From IMG/VR virus record IMGVR_UViG_2541047938_000003, positions 1 to 42,938 of that record: a DNA stretch of 42,938 bases; one strand, 5' to 3'. The DNA comes from a virus. Its lineage: Duplodnaviria > Heunggongvirae > Uroviricota > Caudoviricetes. Under the pieces are notes generated by a model. The model was not told the DNA's origin. It was given only the letters and a program-made list of their open reading frames with translations, and did no database searches. Below are positions 6,504-37,837 of the stretch, piece after piece. The stretch's first letter is position 1; the number at the start of each line of letters is the position of its first letter. The translations under genes and the position numbers were made by a program.

Positions 6504-7001
6504 CTATTGGAAGGCATCAACTTCATCGTAAAGAACGTTGATGGTTACCGTCGATTCAGTGAGTCGGTCGTGTAATTTTCCAACTTTCTTCAGCGTGCTG
6601 TAACTTTCAGGAACGAAACCCGAATCAATTACAGGCGCGAAGGAAGCTCCGAAGAACAGGTCGCTTTCAAGATCGTGCTTACCAATATGTTTTCCACGGT
6701 GGCGATAGCGATGATCCAAACCGTTCCTGGCTAATTCGTGATACTCACCATTAATAATGACCTTTAAAATTGCAGTTTTAGCGCCGACCTGCATCTTGAT
6801 GAAGGAGTTATCTTTGAAATCTTCCCGAGCCTTAGTTATTTGCTCATCGCTAGTGTTTTCCTGCTTGAGCAATGCCTGTCGAATTTCTTCAACAATTTTC
6901 GCCCTCTCATTAACCGCAGCTTTCGCTTTCTCAAACAATGGGGATGCGAGAAGCAGGTTATGGCATAGCTGATTTTTAATTTCGTTGTTAAGACGAATCA
7001 T
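6504..7001 (-). CDS. Hypothetical accessory protein, first ORF of the leftward early operon
   Basis: 165 aa; AT-rich by eye relative to flanks; contains RYRHRGKH (Rx4H-like). Not arginine-rich, so not N-like. Confidence 0.5.
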   Translation of the reverse strand: MIRLNNEIKNQLCHNLLLASPLFEKAKAAVNERAKIVEEIRQALLKQENTSDEQITKAREDFKDNSFIKMQVGAKTAILKVIINGEYHELARNGLDHRYRHRGKHIGKHDLESDLFFGASFAPVIDSGFVPESYSTLKKVGKLHDRLTESTVTINVLYDEVDAFQ

Positions 7002-7419
7002 TGACTTACCCTCTGTCGTTACCCGCTGATGCGGGAGAAATGCTTTGGCGATGTGGTAGGTGGGAGACCCATTTCGACCCGATTCGGCCTACTTATCTTC
7101 GGCAATAGCTCCTCGGGCCTCGCCGCTTTACGTGCGACATATTCCCGTCCATGAACCCTTCACCACATCCCATAACATTCCCTGTATTGGTCAGCGCCAA
7201 CTCCCTGCCAGTGTTGCCCGTTCTCACGCCGTTCTCGCTCTCGCGCGGGGATACTCTCTCACCGACCGGATCGCACCCGGTGATACAGCACGTTTACGTG
7301 TAGGGGTCTTAACAGGTCATTGACGCTGTAAATCTGCATGTTGTTAAAAAGCAGGCGACTTGCTGTCCGCCGCTGGCTAACTTCGCTCAGCTGTCGATGT
7401 TTCGTTTCGATGGGGTAAA

Positions 7420-7494
7420 TTTAGCGTGATGCTAAATTATGCGCAATAGCAAAATGCTAAATTGTTGAATGGTTTTATTTAGCGTATTGATTAA
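7420..7494. promoter_or_regulatory. OL-like operator cluster: three 17-bp sites of form TTTAGC-N5-GCTAAA
   Basis: 7420-7436 TTTAGCGTGATGCTAAA (perfect palindrome), 7445-7461 AATAGCAAAATGCTAAA, 7478-7494 TTTAGCGTATTGATTAA; same motif recurs right of the repressor gene. Confidence 0.55.
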
Positions 7495-7533
7495 TAAGCG
7501 ATTAAAAATTTACAGCGAAGGAATTCGGGACGT

Positions 7534-7557
7534 AAAAAAGCCCGCGCGATGGCGGGC
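7534..7557 (-). terminator. Rho-independent terminator downstream of the repressor gene
   Basis: Stem GCCCGC/GCGGGC (7540-7545 / 7552-7557) with 6-nt loop, followed on the minus strand by a six-T run. Confidence 0.6.
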
Positions 7558-7577
7558 TTGAGGGGTTTTGCGTGAGG

Positions 7578-8255
7578 TTATGGGATGTTTAGTATTTTGG
7601 CATCAACCACAACGCCGATGATTTTGCAGTTTCCATTAATTTCTAGCATTGGATATGCGGGGTTAAGGGGCTTTAGGAAGCGTCTGCCGGCATCGATTAC
7701 AAGCTTCTTAAAGGTCGCTTCGTTATCGCCTTCTAGCTTCGCGACAACCAGCTTTCCGTTGCGCGGCTCGACTTCAGGATCAACAAGTATCGCTGCTCCC
7801 TCGGGTATGCTCAGTCCAGCCGGGGAGGTCATAGAATCCCCTTTAACGTCCAGCCAGAATGAATCTTCTGAGCAGTCAACAGTCGTGTCATACCAGCGAT
7901 CTATCGCTCTTCGGTGATAAGGTTCTACAGCTTCCATCCATTGCCCCGCGCTTACCCAGCTGATTACAGGATAACTTCCTTTTGTCTCGTTCAGTCCTCG
8001 AAATGCAACGTTCGAAGGTTCTTCACTGGCGTGTAAAACATCCATCCAGCCAAAAGGCAGATCAAGCGCAGTTTCAATTTTGCGAGCCATCTTATCGCCG
8101 ATATTGCGATGAGGGTTTGGTCCCAGTAGCTGACTAAGCGCAGCCGGACTTGTCTCGATGAGCTCGGCAAACTGCGCTTTGGTCATTCCAGACTCGTGCT
8201 GACGCTTCTCGTACAGCGCTTCCAGGTTGGCTTTTCTGATTTCTTTATTTTCCAT
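7578..8255 (-). CDS. cI: cI-like repressor (HTH plus S24 LexA-type autopeptidase domain)
   Basis: Start set at ATG 8255 (MENKEIRK...); HTH region QFAELIETSPAALSQL; S24 motifs GDSM and VVAKL; operator repeats on both sides. Confidence 0.85.
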   Translation of the reverse strand: MENKEIRKANLEALYEKRQHESGMTKAQFAELIETSPAALSQLLGPNPHRNIGDKMARKIETALDLPFGWMDVLHASEEPSNVAFRGLNETKGSYPVISWVSAGQWMEAVEPYHRRAIDRWYDTTVDCSEDSFWLDVKGDSMTSPAGLSIPEGAAILVDPEVEPRNGKLVVAKLEGDNEATFKKLVIDAGRRFLKPLNPAYPMLEINGNCKIIGVVVDAKILNIP

Positions 8256-8273
8256 ACCTGCATTGTTACTGCT

Positions 8274-8339
8274 TTTAGCAAAATGATAAATGTGCAAATT
8301 GCTAAATGATGCTTGCGTAGTATTTAGCATAACGCTAAA
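8274..8339. promoter_or_regulatory. OR-like operators and candidate rightward promoter
   Basis: 8274-8290 TTTAGCAAAATGATAAA; 8323-8339 TTTAGCATAACGCTAAA (perfect palindrome); candidate promoter TTGCGT (8313-8318) - 17 nt - TAAACT (8336-8341) overlapping the operator. Confidence 0.5.
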
Positions 8340-8371
8340 CTCCAAATCAAACGACTCACCCGGAGACACCA

Positions 8372-8605
8372 ATGAGCACTGAACTACACCGCTGGCGCAA
8401 GGCCGCCACTACCGACGAATGGGCGCAGCTCGCAAAGTTGGCTAACACGACGCCAGGTTACCTGGACCAGATCGCCTACGGAAATCGCCGGGCATCTCCA
8501 GAAATGGCATCTGCTATCGAGAAAGGCACGAAGAATTTTCACCGCCAGGCTCCGGTCCTAAAAGAAAGCCTGGTATTCGCATCGCCGCGTGATACTGCGG
8601 CCTAA
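8372..8605 (+). CDS. Cro/YdaS-like small HTH regulator
   Basis: 77 aa, divergent from the repressor; GGAG RBS; HTH-like WAQLAKLANTTPGYLDQIAYG. Confidence 0.6.
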   Translation: MSTELHRWRKAATTDEWAQLAKLANTTPGYLDQIAYGNRRASPEMASAIEKGTKNFHRQAPVLKESLVFASPRDTAA

Positions 8606-10293: not shown

Positions 10294-11716
10294 TTTCATG
10301 GCTGTACCACAAAACCTCGAAGCAGAGCAGAGCGTTATCGGTGGCCTGCTGCTGGATGATGACAACAGCGAGCGAGTCCAGAAGGTTCTGGCGATGCTCA
10401 AGCCTGAATCGTTCTACAGCCGACCTCACCAGCTGATCTTTGCCGAGATGCGCCAGATGTTCCGCGACAACAAGCCAGTCGATGGTCTGACATTGTTCGA
10501 CGCGCTCGAAGGCAAAGGGCTCGCGGAGCAGGTAGGTGGCTTTGCTTACCTGGCGGAGATCGCCAAGAACACTCCCAGCGCTGCAAACATCGTGGCATAC
10601 GCTGCGTCAGTCCGGGAAGCCGCAATGGAGCGCTACGGTATCAGCCGCCTGACCGAAGCTACTGAGCTGCTGTATTCCCGCAATGGCATGAGCGCCACGC
10701 AGAAGTACGAGGCCATTCAGGGTATTTTCACCCAGCTCGCAGACCATTCAAAAACCGGTAGTCGCCGTGGGTTGCGGTCGTTCGGCGAGGTTATGGATGA
10801 CTGGGTAGCAGATCTGGAGAAACGCTTTGACCCTTCAGGCGAACAGCGCGGCATGAGCACCGGCATCCTGTCACTCGACCGGCTGCTGGCGCCGAAAGGT
10901 CTGGTTAAAGGCTCTCTGTTCGTGATTGGCGCAAGGCCAAAGATGGGCAAGACAACCCTGTACGGTCAGATGGCGATCAACTGCGCGGTTCGTGAGAAAA
11001 AGCCAGCGCTGATGTTCAGCCTCGAAATGCCGGGCGACCAGATCCTCGAAAAACTGGTTGGTCAGAAGTCTGGAGTTAACCCGAGCATTTTTTACATGCC
11101 AGCCACGGATGACGCCGATGACCAGTACCAGGGCGATTACGACGGCGACTTTAAGAAGGCGATCGCCACCGCCGGGCGATTGAGTGAAATCGACATGCTG
11201 TACATCGACGATACTCCTGGCCTGTCACTGGCGCACATCGTTAGCGAAAGCCGCCGAATCAAGCGCGAGAAGGGCTGCGTAGGAATGATTTTGGTTGACT
11301 ACCTGACTCTGATGACCGCCGAAAAAGCCGACCGTAATGACCTTGCCTACGGGATGATCACCAAAGGGTTGAAGAACCTCGCTAAAGAGCTTGGCTGCGT
11401 CGTCGTGCTGCTGACCCAGCTCAACCGCGAACTGGAGAAGCGAGTGAATAAACGCCCGTTACCGAGCGATTCCCGCGACACAGGACAGATTGAGCAGGAC
11501 TGCGACTACTGGGTTGGTATCCACCGGGAAGGTGCTTTCGATGACAGCGTGCCGCCGGGAGAAACCGAGTTAATCCTGCGACTCAATCGCCACGGCAGTA
11601 CCGGAACGGTTTATTGCAATCAGATCAACGGGGCAATTTACGACACAGACCAGCAGGCCGCCGCCGCAGAACGACGCGGGCGTGAGCAGCAGCCGAAAAA
11701 GAAAGGGGGATTCTGA
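10283..11716 (+). CDS. dnaB: Replicative DNA helicase, DnaB family
   Basis: DnaB-type N-terminus (QNLEAEQSVIGGLLLDD), Walker A GARPKMGKTT, typical RecA-like core. Confidence 0.9.
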   Translation: MTADFMAVPQNLEAEQSVIGGLLLDDDNSERVQKVLAMLKPESFYSRPHQLIFAEMRQMFRDNKPVDGLTLFDALEGKGLAEQVGGFAYLAEIAKNTPSAANIVAYAASVREAAMERYGISRLTEATELLYSRNGMSATQKYEAIQGIFTQLADHSKTGSRRGLRSFGEVMDDWVADLEKRFDPSGEQRGMSTGILSLDRLLAPKGLVKGSLFVIGARPKMGKTTLYGQMAINCAVREKKPALMFSLEMPGDQILEKLVGQKSGVNPSIFYMPATDDADDQYQGDYDGDFKKAIATAGRLSEIDMLYIDDTPGLSLAHIVSESRRIKREKGCVGMILVDYLTLMTAEKADRNDLAYGMITKGLKNLAKELGCVVVLLTQLNRELEKRVNKRPLPSDSRDTGQIEQDCDYWVGIHREGAFDDSVPPGETELILRLNRHGSTGTVYCNQINGAIYDTDQQAAAAERRGREQQPKKKGGF

Positions 11717-12060
11717 TGACCATAACAATCCGCGGGCAGATTCTTGCAGCCCTGCGTAACAACCCGGGCCTGAACAGTGCTCGTATTGCCAGCATGATCG
11801 GCATGACCACCAAAAAGATTTCCGGCCCGTTAAGTACGTTGTTTGCAGACGGCCTGATCGAGTTCGAAGGCAAGCACGGACAGCGGCTTTATCGGCTGAC
11901 CGATTACGGCATGAAATACGCACCAGAAACAATCCCGGCTATGCCGAAGGGAAATTCGAAGCTGGTGCAGCGTACAGAGGCAAACGTGATCTGCCAGGAG
12001 TGCCGCAACAGCGCGGCGATGAGAAGGGTATTGATGGTTTGGGGGAGGGTAGGGGTATGA
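11716..12060 (+). CDS. Hypothetical winged-helix protein
   Basis: 114 aa; ILAALRNNPGLNSARIASMIGMTTKKISGPLSTLFADGLIE resembles a wHTH; stop overlaps next start (ATGA). Confidence 0.45.
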   Translation: MTITIRGQILAALRNNPGLNSARIASMIGMTTKKISGPLSTLFADGLIEFEGKHGQRLYRLTDYGMKYAPETIPAMPKGNSKLVQRTEANVICQECRNSAAMRRVLMVWGRVGV

Positions 12061-12518
12061 CAAACGTAAGTGCAGTAGAAAAAATGGCTGAATTAATGCA
12101 GCAGATGGAAGAGAACTCGCCCCGAGTTGCTGCTCTCCAGTATTGCCTGACACAGGTTGCGGAAAAAGTCGAAGAAGCAGAAAAGCGCAATGCGGAGCTT
12201 GAAGCCAGATGCGCTGCGCTGAGTGCGGAGAATTCGGGACTGAAGTCAGCGATTGACGCAACTATCGGATGGCAGCAATCAACCGATCCGGAGAATGTCG
12301 AAAGCGTTCGAATGCTGGTCGACGTTAAAACCCCGGTAACCGACGCTTTCCTGGCTGAAGTTCTGGCGCATGGGGTGGAGATGGCGGCTTGCGCTCTTGA
12401 TGACGTAAACCAGTTTAATTACGCAAACATGCTTGACGATTTAGCGCAGAAACTTCGCAAGGACTCCAACACCGCAGACCCGTTAGCCGCTGGCATCATC
12501 ACTGAGGTGGGGGATTAG
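12057..12518 (+). CDS. Hypothetical protein with coiled-coil segment
   Basis: ATG 12057 with G-rich RBS; 153 aa. Confidence 0.45.
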   Translation: MTNVSAVEKMAELMQQMEENSPRVAALQYCLTQVAEKVEEAEKRNAELEARCAALSAENSGLKSAIDATIGWQQSTDPENVESVRMLVDVKTPVTDAFLAEVLAHGVEMAACALDDVNQFNYANMLDDLAQKLRKDSNTADPLAAGIITEVGD

Positions 12519-14155: not shown

Positions 14156-14695
14156 GTGATTAATATCATTGTTGATTCCAATGCTTGGAATTTTTTACAT
14201 GTGAGTGGGATCTCCTTAAGCAACGAGCTTCTTAGCGATTATAACTTTCAGATAACATTAGAGGTGTCTCGTGAATTGCAGGAGTTAGTGGGCAAGGAAG
14301 GGAAGGAAGCTCTTTATGAATTCTTTGTAAGTGAGACTCAGTCGCTTGAAGAGCCCTTATGCTATTTTGGTTTTTACAATGAGTCAGTGCCTGCTGATGA
14401 ACAGCGGTTTGGTGGATTTGGTGTTGGCGGGTTCGCATCTGTTCATCAAGATGATTATTTTCAGAAAACATTCCGCCAAATAAAATCATCAAAGCGTGGT
14501 ATTTATTATGGCAATGAAGCTGACATGCTGATCGGGTCAAGAGGAATTGGGAACACTTTCATACTAACAGAAGATAATAATAAGTCAGGCCCGATGAAAG
14601 AGGCTGAGAACACTATCTTTGTTTCAAGAAAATTTCCTATGACTGTGGAGCAGTTTAAGGAATATCTTGATCTTGAAACCTCAAAAACTCTTTAG
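14156..14695 (+). CDS. AT-rich accessory protein (moron), function unknown
   Basis: GTG start preceded by AGGAGG; markedly AT-rich by eye; N-terminal IIVDSNAW plus later acidic residues loosely PIN-like (speculative). Confidence 0.5.
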   Translation: MINIIVDSNAWNFLHVSGISLSNELLSDYNFQITLEVSRELQELVGKEGKEALYEFFVSETQSLEEPLCYFGFYNESVPADEQRFGGFGVGGFASVHQDDYFQKTFRQIKSSKRGIYYGNEADMLIGSRGIGNTFILTEDNNKSGPMKEAENTIFVSRKFPMTVEQFKEYLDLETSKTL

Positions 14696-17813: not shown

Positions 17814-18239
17814 ATGCCGAGCAAAGATTACTATCTTAATCGAAGGGCTAGGCTTGCTAAGGCCGTGGAAAAGTTGGGTGGTCGTTGCGCGAGTTGCGGA
17901 TCCGAATATTCGCTTCAGTTTGACCACATAGACCCTTCCACCAAATCAGCAAATGTAAGCGAGATGCACTATCACTCAGATTCGGTGTTTTATGCTGAGG
18001 TTGAAAAGTGCCAACTACTATGTTCTGCATGCCACATTCAGAAAACCAAATTTGACCTTAGCTACTTAGTAGCTGGTGAGCTGAATGGTATGAGCAAGCT
18101 AACAATGGACAGCGTCCAGTTCATCAGAGAAAACTACATTCCACGACATAAGGTTTATGGAGCCAGAGGGCTAGGGAGAATGTTTGGTGTAACACATCAA
18201 ACAGTGCTTTCAGCCTTAAATGGCGAAACCTGGAAATAA
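17814..18239 (+). CDS. HNH homing-type endonuclease
   Basis: CASCGSEYSLQFDHIDP ... CQLLCSACH matches the HNH zinc-finger nuclease pattern; AT-rich; flanked by tRNA-like sequence. Confidence 0.75.
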   Translation: MPSKDYYLNRRARLAKAVEKLGGRCASCGSEYSLQFDHIDPSTKSANVSEMHYHSDSVFYAEVEKCQLLCSACHIQKTKFDLSYLVAGELNGMSKLTMDSVQFIRENYIPRHKVYGARGLGRMFGVTHQTVLSALNGETWK

Positions 18240-20480: not shown

Positions 20481-20948
20481 ATGGAGAATTTAATGTTTAA
20501 GCAATTCAGGCGCAATATTGCCTCTGCAAAGGTAAGAAAGTATATAGCTCACTGGATGGAAGTTATGTCGCTTACATTCAGAAATTCTATGGCAGGAAAT
20601 TATATTGACCAGAAGGATTTAGACAGAATTAGCCTTGTTATTATTAGCACTGCAATCACTGAGGCAAAAGTTTGTAGTGGCATAATCATGACATGTGTTG
20701 CTGATGTGGCGGCTAGAGCAGGCATGACCGAAGAGGATTTAAGTTATCTTCCGTATCAGGTGCTTGCCATAACGAAAGGGGTGGAAGGTCGTTCCCCGTT
20801 AGAGTCTAAGAAAGGTATGCTTGGGCTCATTTCACCTGGTTATGAGTTTTCTGATCAGGATGCGGGTTGGTTCGATACTAATATTGAAATCATAACTAAG
20901 CAGCTTAAAAATGATCTGCGAAGCGTAGTTAACAAGTTGCAAGATTGA
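20481..20948 (+). CDS. AT-rich accessory protein (moron), function unknown
   Basis: 155-aa ORF between lysis cassette and terminase, with its own upstream promoter-like sequence and a strong downstream terminator. Confidence 0.5.
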   Translation: MENLMFKQFRRNIASAKVRKYIAHWMEVMSLTFRNSMAGNYIDQKDLDRISLVIISTAITEAKVCSGIIMTCVADVAARAGMTEEDLSYLPYQVLAITKGVEGRSPLESKKGMLGLISPGYEFSDQDAGWFDTNIEIITKQLKNDLRSVVNKLQD

Positions 20949-35305: not shown

Positions 35306-35641
35306 ATGGATCCGATAACCAACATCACTGACGAACCTATCCAGCGGCATGTTCTGATTTTTGACCGTGGTGAGGCTGTGGTCACTATTCGTTATCTGCC
35401 TACGGTTGAAATGTGGAAAATGCGCGTGGAGTACAACGGTGATTACATCGACGGCGTGAAGCTGTCCCTCGGGACGCTACATTTTCGGCACAAGAACTGG
35501 CCTTTCGACGTTGTGTTACTTTGCGCTGACAATTCCGGCATTGACCCATATCGGGCTGACGACTTCGCCAGTGGTCGCATCGAAATGTATCTGGTCACGC
35601 CGGAAGAGATGATTGATATTCGCGGGGGAGACGTGCCGTGA
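35306..35641 (+). CDS. Tail/baseplate protein, unknown
   Basis: 111-aa ORF in operon. Confidence 0.4.
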   Translation: MDPITNITDEPIQRHVLIFDRGEAVVTIRYLPTVEMWKMRVEYNGDYIDGVKLSLGTLHFRHKNWPFDVVLLCADNSGIDPYRADDFASGRIEMYLVTPEEMIDIRGGDVP

Positions 35642-36585
35642 TGGATACTTTTTACCGTGATTATCGGCTGACGGTGGGGATCGGCAATCAAGCAGTGATT
35701 ATCGAGCCACCGATCACCGTGTCATTCAAGGCGCTGGAAACTGTGGACAAGAAGTCACTCGGCAAGCTGAGTGTGTCCATCAACGGGCTAAAGCCTTCCA
35801 CGCGTCTGCAATTGCTCAAGTCCGAAGATGAAGAGAAGTATATCCCCGTTCGACTCGAGGTTGGTTACGACGGCAAGCTGCGCCAGGTATTTCAGGGTTC
35901 GGTTAAAAGCGGAGCAGTAAAGCGTGAGGGGGCGATCCACATCGTCAGCCTGGAATGTGAAGACGGTGGCCACGACTATATCAACGCCTTCACATCGCGC
36001 ACGGTACGCGGGAAAGATCAGGTCGTCGATTCTGTCTTGCAGGATATGCCAAACACGAAAAAAGGCTCTGTGACGAAGCAACAAGCACTCATCAGGCCGA
36101 AGGTTCTGGTAGGTAGCTCCAGTAAAATTCTTACCGATACCCTTGCGCCCGACGAGTCATTTTTCATCAAAGATGAGCGCGTCCACATCCTCAAGGCTAA
36201 TGAGGTTACATCGGGTAACATTCCAGTCGTGAATGCGCGTAGCGGCCTGCTAAATACGCCTCAGGCTACGAAGATTAGCGCGCAGGATGACGGCGGGAAA
36301 AAGGCCAAAAAGCCGACCAATGAGCCTGATACGGATCCGGCAGGCAAAAAAGATACTGACTCGAGTACCTTAGCCAAATCCTCGAAAGGGCAGATCGTAT
36401 TCGATACGAAACTGAATCCTATGCTGGTGATCGGTGGGCTTTGCGCTGTTGAAAGCGTGACGAACCCCGCGTTAAACGGGGTTTATAAGATATACCAGAT
36501 TGAAACCAGCGGGCAGAACAACGGGGCAGCCTGGTATCAGAAGGTGGTATGCCAGCCTGCCGGAAATTACTCAGTTGTTAACTGA
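35638..36585 (+). CDS. Baseplate hub-like protein (putative)
   Basis: 315 aa; position between tape measure and spike/baseplate genes. Confidence 0.45.
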   Translation: MMDTFYRDYRLTVGIGNQAVIIEPPITVSFKALETVDKKSLGKLSVSINGLKPSTRLQLLKSEDEEKYIPVRLEVGYDGKLRQVFQGSVKSGAVKREGAIHIVSLECEDGGHDYINAFTSRTVRGKDQVVDSVLQDMPNTKKGSVTKQQALIRPKVLVGSSSKILTDTLAPDESFFIKDERVHILKANEVTSGNIPVVNARSGLLNTPQATKISAQDDGGKKAKKPTNEPDTDPAGKKDTDSSTLAKSSKGQIVFDTKLNPMLVIGGLCAVESVTNPALNGVYKIYQIETSGQNNGAAWYQKVVCQPAGNYSVVN

Positions 36586-37104
36586 AGATTTTACTTCTTG
36601 CGTTACGCTGGAATTGGTTTTTTCTGGTGGGTGACGATCTGAAAGCCAGCCAAGAGCAAAAATAATGACTGTGAGAATAAAAATTTTCTCGCCTATTGAA
36701 AACTTCACCTTACCACCTGCATTTTTAAATGCCGTTTTCTCCTCGGTTGATAGTTTTCTAAATTGCTTATGGGTTAATACCATGACCAATGGGCGAGGTG
36801 GTTGAATATCTTCCTGACCATCCTCTAACAACGTTGAGTCCGAAAAGAAACCAAGCCGCTCAGGTGCTTGTTCCTCTACGTTCTCAGCGTGTTTACCGGT
36901 GGAGTTCTTTTGACCCGCGAGCAAGTTTCCACTCGTGTAAGACAAACCGGTACCGGGAATGCCTGCGGTTGCCTTTACCCCTTTTTTACCAACGTTCAGG
37001 GTAGCACCAGCCTTACCAATTGATGCGCTAGTAATGCCTGTTTTACCTATGTTTATATGAATGCCTGGTGCAATTTTGATGCGCTGTCTGAATTTGAATC
37101 CCAT
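36571..37104 (-). CDS. Reverse-strand accessory gene: DUF4236-like N-terminus with C-terminal TM helix
   Basis: MGFKFRQRIKIAPGIHINIGKTGITSASIGKAG...GIPGTGLSY matches the remembered DUF4236 pattern; hydrophobic IFILTVIIFALGWL; strong RBS AAGGAGAG; AT-rich; opposite strand to all flanking tail genes. Confidence 0.6.
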   Translation of the reverse strand: MGFKFRQRIKIAPGIHINIGKTGITSASIGKAGATLNVGKKGVKATAGIPGTGLSYTSGNLLAGQKNSTGKHAENVEEQAPERLGFFSDSTLLEDGQEDIQPPRPLVMVLTHKQFRKLSTEEKTAFKNAGGKVKFSIGEKIFILTVIIFALGWLSDRHPPEKTNSSVTQEVKSSVNN

Positions 37105-37219
37105 GAGTGACTCTCCTTAGTATTAAACGCTGGCGCAGGTTCGCTCTACGGCGATTAGTATGAGTATTTATCTAGCCATCCATTGAACCCACTCTGGCGG
37201 TTTTTTATGGGCTTAATTT

Positions 37220-37837
37220 ATGATCGAAGAACTTCACGACACTATCGGCCTGGGTGTTGAATTTGCTCTGGCCGATGTTCACACCATTGTTGTCGCAAAA
37301 ATAACGTCTGTAAATGACAAAACAATCAGTTGCGTCCCCGTTATCAATCGGGTTGTGAAAGGGAGCAGCAAGCAACTCCCAGAGTTCATTGAAGTCCCCC
37401 CGGTAATTTTGCAAGGCGGTGATAGTTATATCGCCGAACCAATTGCGGCTGGTGACTATTGCCTCGTCCTTATCTCTGAGCGTTGTTATGACGCTTGGTA
37501 TGCGGGTAGCGACTTTGTTTCACCACTTGAAATGCGTATGCACGATTATTCAGATGGCTTCGCTCTGTGTGGGGTTAACCCACAGGCTACCGCGATCAAT
37601 ATCCCTAAGAAGAACAGGATGATGAAGGGGGATTCTGACCACGAGGGTGATTTAAACCTCACAGGAAATATTACCCAGAAAGATGGTAAGACGACTCTGG
37701 AAGAATGCGATGTTCTGAATGTACTTCAATATTCCCAGGTAAAGACAGGCGGTAAGTCTGGGGTGTCTGGTTCATTTCGAAGCGATGACGGGAAAACAAT
37801 CACAGTTACCAACGGTATTGTCACGGAGATCTCATGA
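37220..37837 (+). CDS. Baseplate spike/gpV-like protein (putative)
   Basis: 205 aa at the start of the baseplate gene block. Confidence 0.45.
   Translation: MIEELHDTIGLGVEFALADVHTIVVAKITSVNDKTISCVPVINRVVKGSSKQLPEFIEVPPVILQGGDSYIAEPIAAGDYCLVLISERCYDAWYAGSDFVSPLEMRMHDYSDGFALCGVNPQATAINIPKKNRMMKGDSDHEGDLNLTGNITQKDGKTTLEECDVLNVLQYSQVKTGGKSGVSGSFRSDDGKTITVTNGIVTEIS

What the first reader, a model, noticed from the sequence alone, without database searches (positions are those of the whole stretch)
36571..37220. Reverse-strand DUF4236-like membrane-anchored gene embedded in the tail/baseplate operon
Every flanking structural gene is on the + strand, but this AT-rich 177-aa ORF is on the minus strand with a strong RBS and an AT-rich upstream region (37105-37220) that could hold its promoter. 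The N-terminus matches the remembered DUF4236 pattern and the C-terminus has a predicted TM helix. An independently transcribed insertion inside a tail module is typical of lysogen-expressed cargo such as superinfection exclusion or defence genes.
Basis: partly seen in the sequence, partly recalled or inferred. Interest (0 to 1): 0.55.

Follow-up and report, generated by a model that had tools for sequence, protein, structure and literature searches.

The report
Prophage membrane cargo gene between baseplate genes
A small backwards-facing gene wedged between two tail-baseplate genes of an E. coli prophage is real add-on cargo that encodes a membrane-anchored protein of unknown function, probably used by the dormant virus to keep out rival viruses, but that role is inferred and not shown.

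Summary
ORF 36571-37104 (minus strand, 177 aa) has a strong SD, a full-length Pfam DUF4236 match (E=4.9e-19), one C-terminal TM helix, and clearly lower GC than its neighbours.

It is not a tail component. In distant relatives (Yersinia fEV-1, Vibrio phages) the hub and spike genes abut. In 68 enterobacterial relatives the same junction holds at least seven alternative cargoes, all envelope proteins; 28 of the 68 carry a DUF4236 gene. All eight full-length homologues whose context was examined sit at this junction.

In Salmonella and Yersinia relatives the gene lies directly downstream of a P22-Mnt homologue, beside arc-like and antirepressor genes. That is the position sieA holds in P22 immI. 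The window keeps only remnants of that module (shared leader, degraded terminator). The gene is still under purifying selection (dN/dS about 0.2).

There is no homology to SieA, no hit to known defence models, no fold match and no literature. No convincing promoter lies in 37105-37219.

Best reading: a lysogen-expressed inner-membrane accessory protein, most likely for superinfection exclusion. The cargo status is solid; the function is inference. Moderate interest.

The parts
36571..37104 (-). DUF4236-TM cargo gene (177 aa). Its last 15 nt overlap, convergently, the 3' end of the hub gene.
   Evidence: ORF; Pfam PF14020 E=4.9e-19; PHROG 18347, unknown function, E=5.6e-79; GC 43.6%, GC3 39%; dN/dS 0.21-0.26 against other class D copies.
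36934..37098 (-). DUF4236 domain (aa 3-57): basic, glycine-rich, six-strand antiparallel beta-meander, predicted to be cytoplasmic.
   Evidence: Pfam. AF2 strands 7-58 with pLDDT about 90. 9 K/R, 0 D/E and 12 Gly in aa 1-60. 0-1 nonsynonymous against 2-5 synonymous changes among class D copies.
36784..36924 (-). Acidic, disordered linker (aa 61-107). It varies in length and is nearly absent in the 147-155 aa homologues.
   Evidence: pLDDT below 50 for aa 65-107; 9 D/E; alignment A1; highest dN of the gene.
36634..36783 (-). Conserved juxtamembrane motif (LTxKQFRKLSxxEKxxFKxAGGKVK, aa 108-136) plus the TM helix (aa 137-157). This is the core shared with class B cargo and with the long variants.
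   Evidence: Invariant residues L110 T111 K113 L118 S119 F126 G130 G131 K132 S136 K140 G152 W153 L154. BLASTP to class B E=2e-8 to 5e-12. AF2 helix 137-157. Only 4 true cluster representatives among 1.84 billion proteins.
37113..37118 (-). Shine-Dalgarno AAGGAG, 8 nt upstream of the ATG.
   Evidence: Sequence.
37105..37161 (-). Leader that is homologous to the mnt-DUF4236 intergenic region of the Salmonella relatives.
   Evidence: Alignment A3. No unusual RNA structure, z=-0.26.
37162..37187 (-). Possible degenerate remnant of the 3' end of an mnt-like gene, including a TAG at 37172-37174. Weak similarity only.
   Evidence: Alignment A3 against L079/L080; a clearer remnant is seen in L035. tblastn with Mnt finds no hit in the window.
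37188..37211 (+). Degraded copy of the hairpin-plus-T-run terminator that closes the cargo island just before the spike ATG in relatives. It corresponds to the ant-distal terminator.
   Evidence: Boundary comparison; L079/L082 ant-end sequences; P22 ant terminator upstream of gene 9; not called as a terminator in the window.
37286..37314 (-). Candidate antisense promoter inside the spike gene (TTTACA-17 nt-AACAAT, 9 of 12). Unproven.
   Evidence: Exact motif in 64 of the 68 cargo-bearing relatives and a one-base variant in the other 4; absent in 5 cargo-less relatives. It overlaps the conserved codons HTIVVAKITxVN, so this is not decisive.
35638..36585 (+). Baseplate hub gene (E217 gp41-like); left border of the cargo hotspot.
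   Evidence: Pfam PF22759 E=2.9e-9; PHROG 196, baseplate hub, E=5e-51.
37220..37837 (+). Membrane-puncturing spike gene; right border of the cargo hotspot.
   Evidence: Pfam PF18352 E=1.3e-17; RefSeq annotation.

Best explanation
The gene is horizontally acquired prophage cargo (a moron-type gene). It sits in a recombination hotspot between the baseplate hub and spike genes of an E217-like contractile-tail prophage of E. coli.

It encodes a bitopic inner-membrane protein with N-in, C-out topology. The parts are a basic cytoplasmic DUF4236 beta-meander, an acidic disordered linker, a conserved juxtamembrane motif, one TM helix and a 20-residue periplasmic tail.

In the wider prophage family this gene belongs to an immI-type accessory module: Mnt-like repressor followed by DUF4236 on the antisense strand, and arc-like plus antirepressor on the late strand. 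It occupies the place that sieA holds in P22. The window carries a derivative in which mnt, arc and ant have been deleted.

Inferred mechanism: the protein is made in the lysogen. Its expression is probably reduced once antisense late transcription starts. It acts at the inner membrane to block genome delivery by incoming phages that use the same kind of tail-tip or tape-measure machinery, i.e. superinfection exclusion.

Shown: insertion status, domain architecture, hotspot, immI linkage in relatives and purifying selection. Inferred: topology, expression in the lysogen and exclusion activity.
For: 1. Insertion. The hub and spike genes abut or overlap in Yersinia fEV-1, Vibrio 1.052.A, VBM1, L074 and L076 (gap 5-36 bp). 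In the window they are 634 nt apart.

2. Hotspot. 68 enterobacterial relatives carry seven alternative cargo types at this junction, and every one is a predicted envelope protein: signal-peptide protein, bPH_2 two-TM protein, DUF7424 lipoprotein, secreted OB-fold protein, motif+TM+periplasmic domain, and DUF4236-TM with or without the signal-peptide protein.

3. Foreign composition. GC 43.6% and GC3 39%, against 47-64% GC3 in the flanking genes.

4. Fixed location. All eight full-length homologues whose context was examined (53-92% identity; Escherichia, Salmonella, Yersinia, Pantoea, Kluyvera) sit at this junction antisense to the late genes.

5. immI linkage. In Salmonella L079/L080 and Yersinia L082/L083 the gene is directly downstream of and co-oriented with an Mnt homologue (40% identity to P22 Mnt, E=1e-10), next to an arc-like gene and a P22_AR_N antirepressor. 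The P22 annotation shows gene 16 | sieA(-) | orf59a(-) | mnt(-) | arc, ant(+) | gene 9. sieA is prophage-expressed and blocks DNA injection at the inner membrane (PMC10883804).

6. Descent from that module. The window shares the 57-nt leader with the mnt-DUF4236 spacer and keeps the degraded ant-side terminator.

7. Topology. The N-side flank is K-rich. Long variants carry a two-Cys domain after the TM, and Vibrio homologues carry SH3_3 after the TM. 72 of 89 DUF4236 homologues have a TM-like segment after the domain.

8. Still functional. dN/dS is 0.21-0.26 among class D copies.

9. Recurrence elsewhere. Klebsiella phage RCIP0034 has an antisense DUF4236 gene just upstream of its spike gene. 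Pasteurella Pmp2 has hub, a 100-aa gene, then DUF4236. Acinetobacter Ab11510-phi has Arc, Arc, AntA and DUF4236 upstream of the TMP. C. difficile phiCD146 has DUF4236 between the tail chaperone and the TMP, the same slot as the HK97 gp15 exclusion moron (PMC3594210).
Against: - There is no experimental or transcript evidence.
- No sigma-70-like promoter lies in 37105-37219. With mnt deleted, the ancestral promoter is gone. The only candidate (37286-37314) overlaps conserved spike codons and occurs equally in loci with plus-strand cargo.
- No terminator follows the gene, and it overlaps the hub gene by 15 nt.
- There is no homology to SieA (hhalign probability 0.4%), no PADLOC or NCBIfam hit, and no significant fold match.
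- The bulk of the protein is predicted to be cytoplasmic and only about 20 residues face the periplasm. That is unusual for a protein that would have to meet an incoming tail tip.
- The DUF4236 domain also occurs in large Klebsiella (137-149 kb) and Brevundimonas (about 350 kb) phages and in many non-phage bacterial proteins, so the domain itself does not imply exclusion.
Confidence: 0.45

Rival explanations
1. The protein is a lysogen-expressed membrane protein with another role. One option is an abortive-infection or membrane-perturbing defence triggered from the cytoplasmic side, with the basic DUF4236 domain as sensor. The other is a host-fitness or envelope-stress factor of the Bor/Lom type. 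In neither case does it block DNA entry.
For: It has the same cargo and moron features as the best explanation. Most of the protein is cytoplasmic, which suits sensing inside the cell better than meeting a tail tip in the periplasm. The alternative cargoes at the hotspot are diverse envelope proteins with no common exclusion signature. Morons are known to have many different roles (PMC3594210).
Against: There is no match to any known Abi or defence model. The strict tie of the full-length subfamily to one tail type and one junction, and the sieA-like position beside mnt, point more specifically to exclusion of like phages.
Confidence: 0.27
2. The protein serves the phage's own lytic cycle or regulation. 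For example, it could act as a membrane factor in lysis timing or in immI (antirepressor) control, or its antisense transcription could tune expression of the spike and downstream baseplate genes.
For: The DUF4236 gene is co-oriented with structural genes in Pasteurella Pmp2 and C. difficile phiCD146. It is co-oriented with the antirepressor in Acinetobacter Ab11510-phi. It is also present in large Klebsiella and Brevundimonas phages. Antisense arrangements inside late regions are reported to couple expression of embedded genes to late transcription in phi80 (PMC11364771).
Against: The gene is absent from many otherwise near-identical prophages and is replaced by unrelated cargo, so it is dispensable for virion production. 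In this family it is antisense to the late operon. The lysis cassette lies elsewhere in the prophage.
Confidence: 0.15
3. The gene is a silent, decaying leftover. Deletion of mnt, arc and ant removed its promoter, and the ORF persists only because the event is recent.
For: No promoter was detected in the spacer. There are remnants of the neighbouring module. The periplasmic domain found in the long variants is missing.
Against: The ORF is intact in all 14 class D loci, with 92-100% protein identity. dN/dS is 0.21-0.26, with almost no nonsynonymous change in the DUF4236 domain despite dS of 0.14-0.18. The strong SD is retained. Short variants without mnt also exist in diverged lineages, L081 and L084-L086.
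Confidence: 0.08
4. The protein is a conserved structural or assembly component of the baseplate.
For: Its location between the hub and spike genes, and the recurrence of DUF4236 genes near hub, spike or TMP genes in other phages.
Against: It is on the opposite strand to the operon. It is absent in 40 of 68 cargo-bearing relatives and in all 5 distant relatives with the same baseplate genes. It has foreign composition and a TM anchor.
Confidence: 0.03

Closest known systems
P22 sieA, in the sieA-orf59a-mnt / arc-ant (immI) region
   Same: Both genes are antisense and embedded between late structural genes. Both lie on the mnt side of a divergent mnt / arc-ant module, with a terminator before the next late gene (P22 annotation; Salmonella and Yersinia relatives). 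Both encode small proteins of about 160-180 aa with no signal peptide and predicted inner-membrane location. SieA is prophage-expressed and blocks DNA injection by like phages (PMC10883804).
   Different: There is no sequence or profile similarity (hhalign probability 0.4%). SieA has three predicted TM helices and no DUF4236 domain, whereas this protein has one TM and a large cytoplasmic domain. P22 is a podovirus with ejection proteins; this prophage has a contractile tail with a TMP, hub and spike. In the window itself mnt, arc and ant are absent.
HK97 gp15 moron (YebO-like superinfection exclusion protein)
   Same: Both are small single-pass inner-membrane proteins encoded by an insertion inside the tail operon of a temperate coliphage. 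For gp15, exclusion depends on the incoming phage's tail and tape-measure region (PMC3594210; PMC10883804). In C. difficile phiCD146 a DUF4236 gene occupies the same chaperone-TMP slot.
   Different: gp15 belongs to a different family and has no DUF4236 domain. gp15 has the canonical moron promoter and terminator and is co-oriented with the tail operon. Here the gene is antisense, and no promoter or terminator could be identified.
Pfam DUF4236 (PF14020) proteins
   Same: Full-length, high-scoring match to the domain. The protein shares the family's dominant architecture of N-terminal DUF4236, linker and TM segment, seen in 72 of 89 homologues.
   Different: The juxtamembrane motif plus TM core is confined to a tiny Enterobacterales prophage subfamily: 4 cluster representatives in 1.84 billion proteins. 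Other members carry SH3_3, zinc-ribbon, TM2, HTH or TPR partners. No member has a known function.
Prophage defence genes embedded antisense in late regions (phi80 Tai/Ati noncontiguous operon)
   Same: Both are prophage accessory genes lying within or against late transcription. In phi80, expression of the embedded gene fell when Q-dependent late transcription was switched on (PMC11364771).
   Different: The proteins are unrelated. The search of the Tai paper found no mention of transmembrane segments. No partner counter-defence gene is seen here.

Membership tests
Pfam DUF4236 (PF14020) | HMM match above the gathering threshold across the whole domain. | tested here: met
   E=4.9e-19, 69 bits against a cutoff of 27, profile positions 1-55 of 55.
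Moron (Juhala/Hendrix sense; PMC3594210) | An extra gene inserted between two genes that are adjacent in related phages. | tested here: met
   Hub and spike abut in 5 relatives. 68 others carry alternative cargo at the same junction.
Moron (Juhala/Hendrix sense; PMC3594210) | Nucleotide composition distinct from the surrounding genes. | tested here: met
   GC 43.6% against 51.5% (lowest 3.2% of windows); GC3 39% against 47-64%.
Moron (Juhala/Hendrix sense; PMC3594210) | Own promoter. | tested here: inconclusive
   No consensus site in 37105-37219. The candidate TTTACA-17-AACAAT lies inside the spike gene at 37286-37314, but it overlaps conserved codons.
Moron (Juhala/Hendrix sense; PMC3594210) | Own terminator. 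| tested here: not met
   The gene's 3' end overlaps the hub gene by 15 nt. There is only a weak hairpin 250 nt further on inside the hub gene. By contrast, the plus-strand cargoes of relatives have clear terminators.
Moron (Juhala/Hendrix sense; PMC3594210) | Expressed from the repressed prophage. | not testable with these tools
   Needs strand-specific RNA-seq or a reporter in a lysogen.
P22 SieA family | Sequence or profile homology to SieA. | tested here: not met
   hhalign probability 0.4%, E=0.14.
P22 SieA family | Position antisense between late genes, on the mnt side of an immI module. | tested here: inconclusive
   Met in the Salmonella and Yersinia homologue loci. In the window only remnants of the module remain.
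P22 SieA family | [quoted passage not shown] | not testable with these tools
   The membrane location is only predicted. Exclusion needs phage assays.
HK97 gp15 / YebO family | Sequence homology to gp15/YebO. | not tested
   No gp15 sequence was compared. Pfam and NCBIfam scans gave only DUF4236.
Known anti-phage defence systems (PADLOC-DB 2.0) | Match to any defence-protein HMM. | tested here: not met
   No hit at E<=1 for this protein, and none for the five alternative cargo proteins.
Baseplate structural proteins of E217-like myophages | Conserved presence and co-orientation within the baseplate operon. | tested here: not met
   Opposite strand. Absent in 45 of 73 related loci.

The most novel reading that the evidence does not exclude
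DUF4236-TM proteins could be a widespread, so far unrecognised class of immunity-region accessory proteins, a 'SieA of contractile and long-tailed phages'. They would act from the cytoplasmic face of the inner membrane to stop genome delivery through the tape-measure and spike conduit. They would be genetically coupled to Mnt/Arc/antirepressor (immI-type) modules and to hub-spike or chaperone-TMP junctions in phages of Enterobacterales, Acinetobacter, Pasteurella and Clostridioides.
Probability: 0.25. Interest if true: 0.65.

Novelty: new member of a known kind. Interest (0 to 1): 0.42.

Why it matters
- **A testable role for an unstudied domain.** If the inference holds, it would assign a first function to DUF4236, a domain family found in bacteria and phages that has no literature. 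It would also add a new protein family to the few known injection-blocking exclusion systems. Per the SieA paper, those studied so far act on short-tailed or long non-contractile-tailed phages (PMC10883804).
- **A natural cargo slot for screening.** The hub|spike junction emerges as a cargo slot filled only by envelope proteins, with at least seven types. It gives a compact, comparable set of candidates for screening prophage-encoded surface or entry defences.
- **Possible immI linkage.** The repeated pairing with Mnt/Arc/antirepressor modules suggests that immI-type regions carry exclusion genes more generally than in P22.
- **Practical relevance.** Such genes affect how susceptible lysogens are to therapeutic phages.

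Tried and rejected
- **Megablast against cultured phages:** the region gave no match. The family is known only from prophages and metagenomic viral contigs.
- **PADLOC and NCBIfam:** nothing for this protein or for the alternative cargoes.
- **Literature searches for DUF4236, PF14020 and IPR025330:** one incidental mention, otherwise only Plasmodium gene identifiers.
- **Homology to P22 SieA:** rejected.
- **Periplasmic domain of the long variant:** only weak NTF2/SnoaL-like matches (E>0.08), not used.
- **RNA element in the leader or junction:** no stable structure (z=-0.26) and no Rfam match.
- **Promoter in 37105-37219:** none convincing.
- **Test of the antisense promoter-like motif in the spike gene:** I asked whether it tracks minus-strand cargo. 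It does not discriminate, because it is present with plus-strand cargo too.
- **Word-index homologue search with the C-terminal half:** it returned nothing, so I replaced it with the exhaustive search.
- **First P22 fetch:** it covered the wrong part of the genome and was repeated.
Full report
**Observation**

The window is a complete E. coli prophage. It has an integrase at 1-1194, an S24 repressor at 7578-8372, and the lysis, head, tail and fibre genes. It is 100% identical over the tested 3.2 kb to two E. coli chromosomes and 99.6% identical to three more. Only 8 of 5,426 complete E. coli genomes carry this tail region.

An AAGGAG Shine-Dalgarno lies 8 nt upstream of the ATG. The flanking genes, all on the + strand, are the tape measure, a Dit-like protein, a Pam3-gp18-like plug, an E217-gp41-like hub (35638-36585), a membrane-puncturing spike (37220-37837), a gp25-like sheath initiator, baseplate J and DUF2612.

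The remembered DUF4236 pattern is a true, full-length Pfam match: E=4.9e-19, 69 bits against a cutoff of 27, at aa 3-57. There is one hydrophobic segment. The best 19-residue window has a mean Kyte-Doolittle value of 1.87, and AlphaFold predicts a helix at residues 137-157.

The gene is compositionally foreign. Its GC is 43.6% against 51.5% for the window, in the lowest 3.2% of same-sized windows. Its GC3 is 39% against 47-64% in its neighbours. The 115-nt upstream spacer is only mildly AT-rich (13th percentile). It contains no sigma-70 consensus site.

**It is cargo, not a tail part**

In the closest cultured relatives of this baseplate module, the hub and spike genes overlap or abut with no intervening gene. 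These are Yersinia phage fEV-1, Vibrio phage 1.052.A and VBM1. The same is true of two viral contigs, L074 and L076.

I fetched 73 related loci from bacterial genomes and IMG/VR using the spike protein as query. I then measured the hub-spike gap in each. Five are empty. The other 68 fall into discrete classes:

| Class | Loci | Strand | Content |
|---|---|---|---|
| A | 23 | minus | 120-aa signal-peptide protein |
| B | 3 | minus | 147-157-aa protein: juxtamembrane motif, TM and a ~90-aa two-Cys outer domain |
| C | 7 | plus | two-TM bPH_2 protein (PF03703, E=1.5e-15) |
| D | 14 | minus | the DUF4236 gene alone (this window) |
| E | 5 | plus | DUF7424 lipoprotein |
| F | 2 | plus | secreted OB-fold protein |
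| G | 14 | minus | a 40-61%-identical DUF4236 homologue followed by the class A gene |

Every alternative cargo is therefore a predicted envelope protein. None matches a known defence model.

The plus-strand cargoes have the textbook moron layout. A promoter-like element (ttgtaaggtgatattat) precedes the gene, and a strong hairpin-plus-T-run terminator sits immediately before the spike ATG. The window retains a degraded copy of that terminator at 37188-37211.

**The gene's own family and its fixed address**

A search of 5.8 billion proteins found full-length relatives only in Enterobacterales: Escherichia, Kluyvera, Salmonella, Yersinia and Pantoea. More distant hits share only the N-terminal DUF4236 domain, which is fused to SH3_3, zinc ribbons, TM2, HTH or TPR partners.

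In 72 of 89 homologues a TM-like segment follows the domain. The general architecture is therefore an N-terminal DUF4236, a linker, a TM, and an optional outer domain.

I examined the genomic context of eight full-length homologues of 53-69% identity. Every one lies at the same hub|spike junction, antisense to the late genes.

The alignment shows three length variants:
- Short-linker forms of 147-155 aa.
- The 167-177-aa form, as in the window.
- 248-252-aa forms that add the class B periplasmic domain.

The invariant core is the motif LTxKxxRxLS...F..AGGK...S...K plus the TM, which ends in GWL. Class B cargo shares this core without DUF4236.

An exhaustive HMMER search with residues 104-177 found only four genuine cluster representatives among 1.84 billion proteins. 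This core is therefore restricted to this prophage lineage.

**Link to an immI-type module**

In Salmonella (L079, L080) and Yersinia (L082, L083) the junction reads as follows. In late-gene orientation it is hub (+), DUF4236 (-), Mnt/Arc-family gene (-), arc-like (+), P22_AR_N antirepressor (+), terminator, spike (+). The Salmonella RHH protein is a true P22 Mnt homologue (40% identity over 70 residues, E=1e-10).

The annotated P22 genome has the same order: gene 16 (+), sieA (-, own promoter), orf59a (-), mnt (-), arc and ant (+), terminator, gene 9 (+). The DUF4236-TM gene therefore occupies the sieA position.

P22 SieA is prophage-expressed. [quoted passage not shown] The two proteins are not homologous (hhalign probability 0.4%), and SieA has three predicted TM helices.

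The 57 nt upstream of the window's ATG align with the mnt-DUF4236 spacer of the Salmonella loci. Class G locus L035 retains a recognisable piece of the mnt 3' end, and the window shows a weaker one. The terminator next to the spike corresponds to the ant-distal terminator. The simplest history is that the window's arrangement arose from an immI-bearing ancestor by deletion of mnt, arc and ant.

Despite that loss, the gene is intact in all 14 class D loci and evolves under purifying selection. dN/dS is 0.21-0.26. The DUF4236 domain has 0-1 nonsynonymous against 2-5 synonymous differences, and the linker and tail evolve fastest.

**Recurrence in unrelated phages**

- In Klebsiella phage RCIP0034, a 105-aa DUF4236 gene lies antisense between the hub region and the spike of a different E217-like baseplate.
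- In Pasteurella phage Pmp2 the order is Dit, plug, hub, a 100-aa gene, DUF4236, then a TM2 membrane protein, with an antirepressor nearby.
- In Acinetobacter phage Ab11510-phi the order is Arc-like (-), Arc-like (+), an unknown gene, an AntA antirepressor, DUF4236, two genes, then the tape measure.
- In C. difficile phages phiCD146 and phiCD38-2 the DUF4236 gene sits between the tail chaperone and the tape measure. That is the slot of the HK97 gp15 exclusion moron (PMC3594210).

On the other hand, DUF4236 domains also occur in large Klebsiella (137-149 kb) and Brevundimonas (about 350 kb) phages. The domain alone does not define a lysogeny function.

**Structure**

AlphaFold with a 65-sequence alignment gives the following:
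- A confident six-strand antiparallel beta-meander for residues 7-58 (pLDDT about 90).
- A disordered acidic linker at 65-107.
- A small alpha/beta element at 109-134 (pLDDT about 70).
- A TM helix at 137-157.

Three things support an N-in, C-out topology. The N-side flank of the TM is lysine-rich. The long variants carry a two-cysteine domain after the TM. The Vibrio homologues carry SH3_3 after the TM.

**Mechanism**

The following points are shown:
- It is an insertion at a hotspot.
- It has foreign composition.
- It has a membrane-anchored architecture.
- It is linked to immI in relatives.
- It is under purifying selection.

The following points are inferred:
- The protein is made in the lysogen.
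- It acts at the inner membrane to exclude phages that use the same delivery machinery, by analogy with sieA and gp15.
- Late antisense transcription would switch it off during the prophage's own lytic growth, as reported for an embedded defence gene in phi80 (PMC11364771).

The weak points are:
- There is no identifiable promoter once mnt is gone. The only candidate, TTTACA-17-AACAAT at 37286-37314, lies inside the spike gene. The exact motif is present in 64 of the 68 cargo-bearing relatives, with a one-base variant in the other 4, and it is absent from the five empty ones. It overlaps conserved codons and does not track cargo strand.
- There is no terminator.
- The periplasmic tail is very short.
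- There are no experimental data.

I put about 0.45 on the exclusion-type reading and about 0.27 on another lysogen-expressed membrane function such as abortive infection or host fitness. A lytic-cycle or regulatory role gets about 0.15, a silent remnant about 0.08, and a structural role about 0.03.

**Novelty and verdict**

The kind of feature, an accessory gene inserted in a tail operon of a temperate phage, is well known. RefSeq already labels the protein as DUF4236-domain-containing.

What appears to be undescribed is:
- The hub|spike junction as a dedicated slot for envelope-protein cargo.
- The DUF4236-motif-TM subfamily's exclusive address there.
- Its repeated pairing with Mnt/Arc/antirepressor modules.

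I found no paper on DUF4236 function. I rate it a new member of a known kind, of moderate interest (0.42), with a clear experimental path.

Noticed in passing
Related loci L050, L033, L075 (class C); L066, L021, L047 (class E); L036, L054 (class F), at the hub|spike junction: Plus-strand cargoes at the same junction have the full moron layout: a promoter-like ttgtaaggtgatattat, the gene, then a strong hairpin-plus-T-run terminator right before the spike ATG. They encode a two-TM bPH_2 protein, a DUF7424 lipoprotein and a secreted tRNA_anti-like OB-fold protein. None matches PADLOC.
   Followed up: partly
L016, L040, L065 and others (class A); L035, L007, L046 (class G): The commonest cargo is a 120-aa signal-peptide protein with no family match. 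Its start codon is only about 21 nt from the spike ATG, so its promoter must lie inside the spike gene. In class G it sits directly downstream of the DUF4236 gene in an operon-like pair.
   Followed up: partly
window 37286-37314 (minus strand), inside the spike gene: A sigma-70-like TTTACA-17 nt-AACAAT lies antisense within spike codons 23-32. The exact motif is in 64 of the 68 cargo-bearing relatives and a one-base variant in the other 4. It is absent in the five relatives with an empty junction. The Val (GTA) and Ile (ATT) codons inside the hexamers never vary in the distinct sequences listed, while neighbouring third positions do.
   Followed up: partly
L079 4361-5931, L080, L082 4481-5937: Salmonella and Yersinia relatives carry a P22-like immI module (Mnt homologue, arc-like gene, P22_AR_N antirepressor) inside the baseplate operon of a contractile-tail prophage.
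   Followed up: partly
L091 (Acinetobacter phage Ab11510-phi) 1670-3824: A divergent Arc-like pair, an AntA antirepressor and a DUF4236 gene lie just upstream of the tape measure gene. This is an independent case of immI-type genes next to DUF4236 in a tail module.
   Followed up: partly
L001 (E. coli strain 1506) 7082-8001: A related prophage is truncated by an IS1A insertion or deletion right next to the class A cargo gene. Only the spike-to-fibre part of the tail module and the integrase-side genes remain.
   Followed up: no
L082/L083 (Yersinia) 11295-12095: A 266-aa NUMOD3-domain (homing-endonuclease-like) gene is inserted antisense between the sheath and tube-region genes. This is a second insertion site in the same tail module.
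   Followed up: no
window 6504-7001 (-), 14156-14695 (+), 17814-18239 (+), 20481-20948 (+): Other low-GC pockets of the prophage hold an Nmad5-domain protein (nucleotide-modification associated), an HNH-endonuclease-like ORF downstream of the antiterminator region, and two ORFs with no Pfam match. They may be further cargo genes.
   Followed up: no
window 36270-36370 (hub codons about 212-245): The hub protein is about 35 residues longer than in fEV-1 and the Vibrio phages. It contains a lysine- and aspartate-rich low-complexity stretch (GGKKAKKPTNEPDTDPAGKKDTDSS). The only terminator-like hairpin on the minus strand downstream of the DUF4236 gene (36303-36318) falls within it.
   Followed up: no
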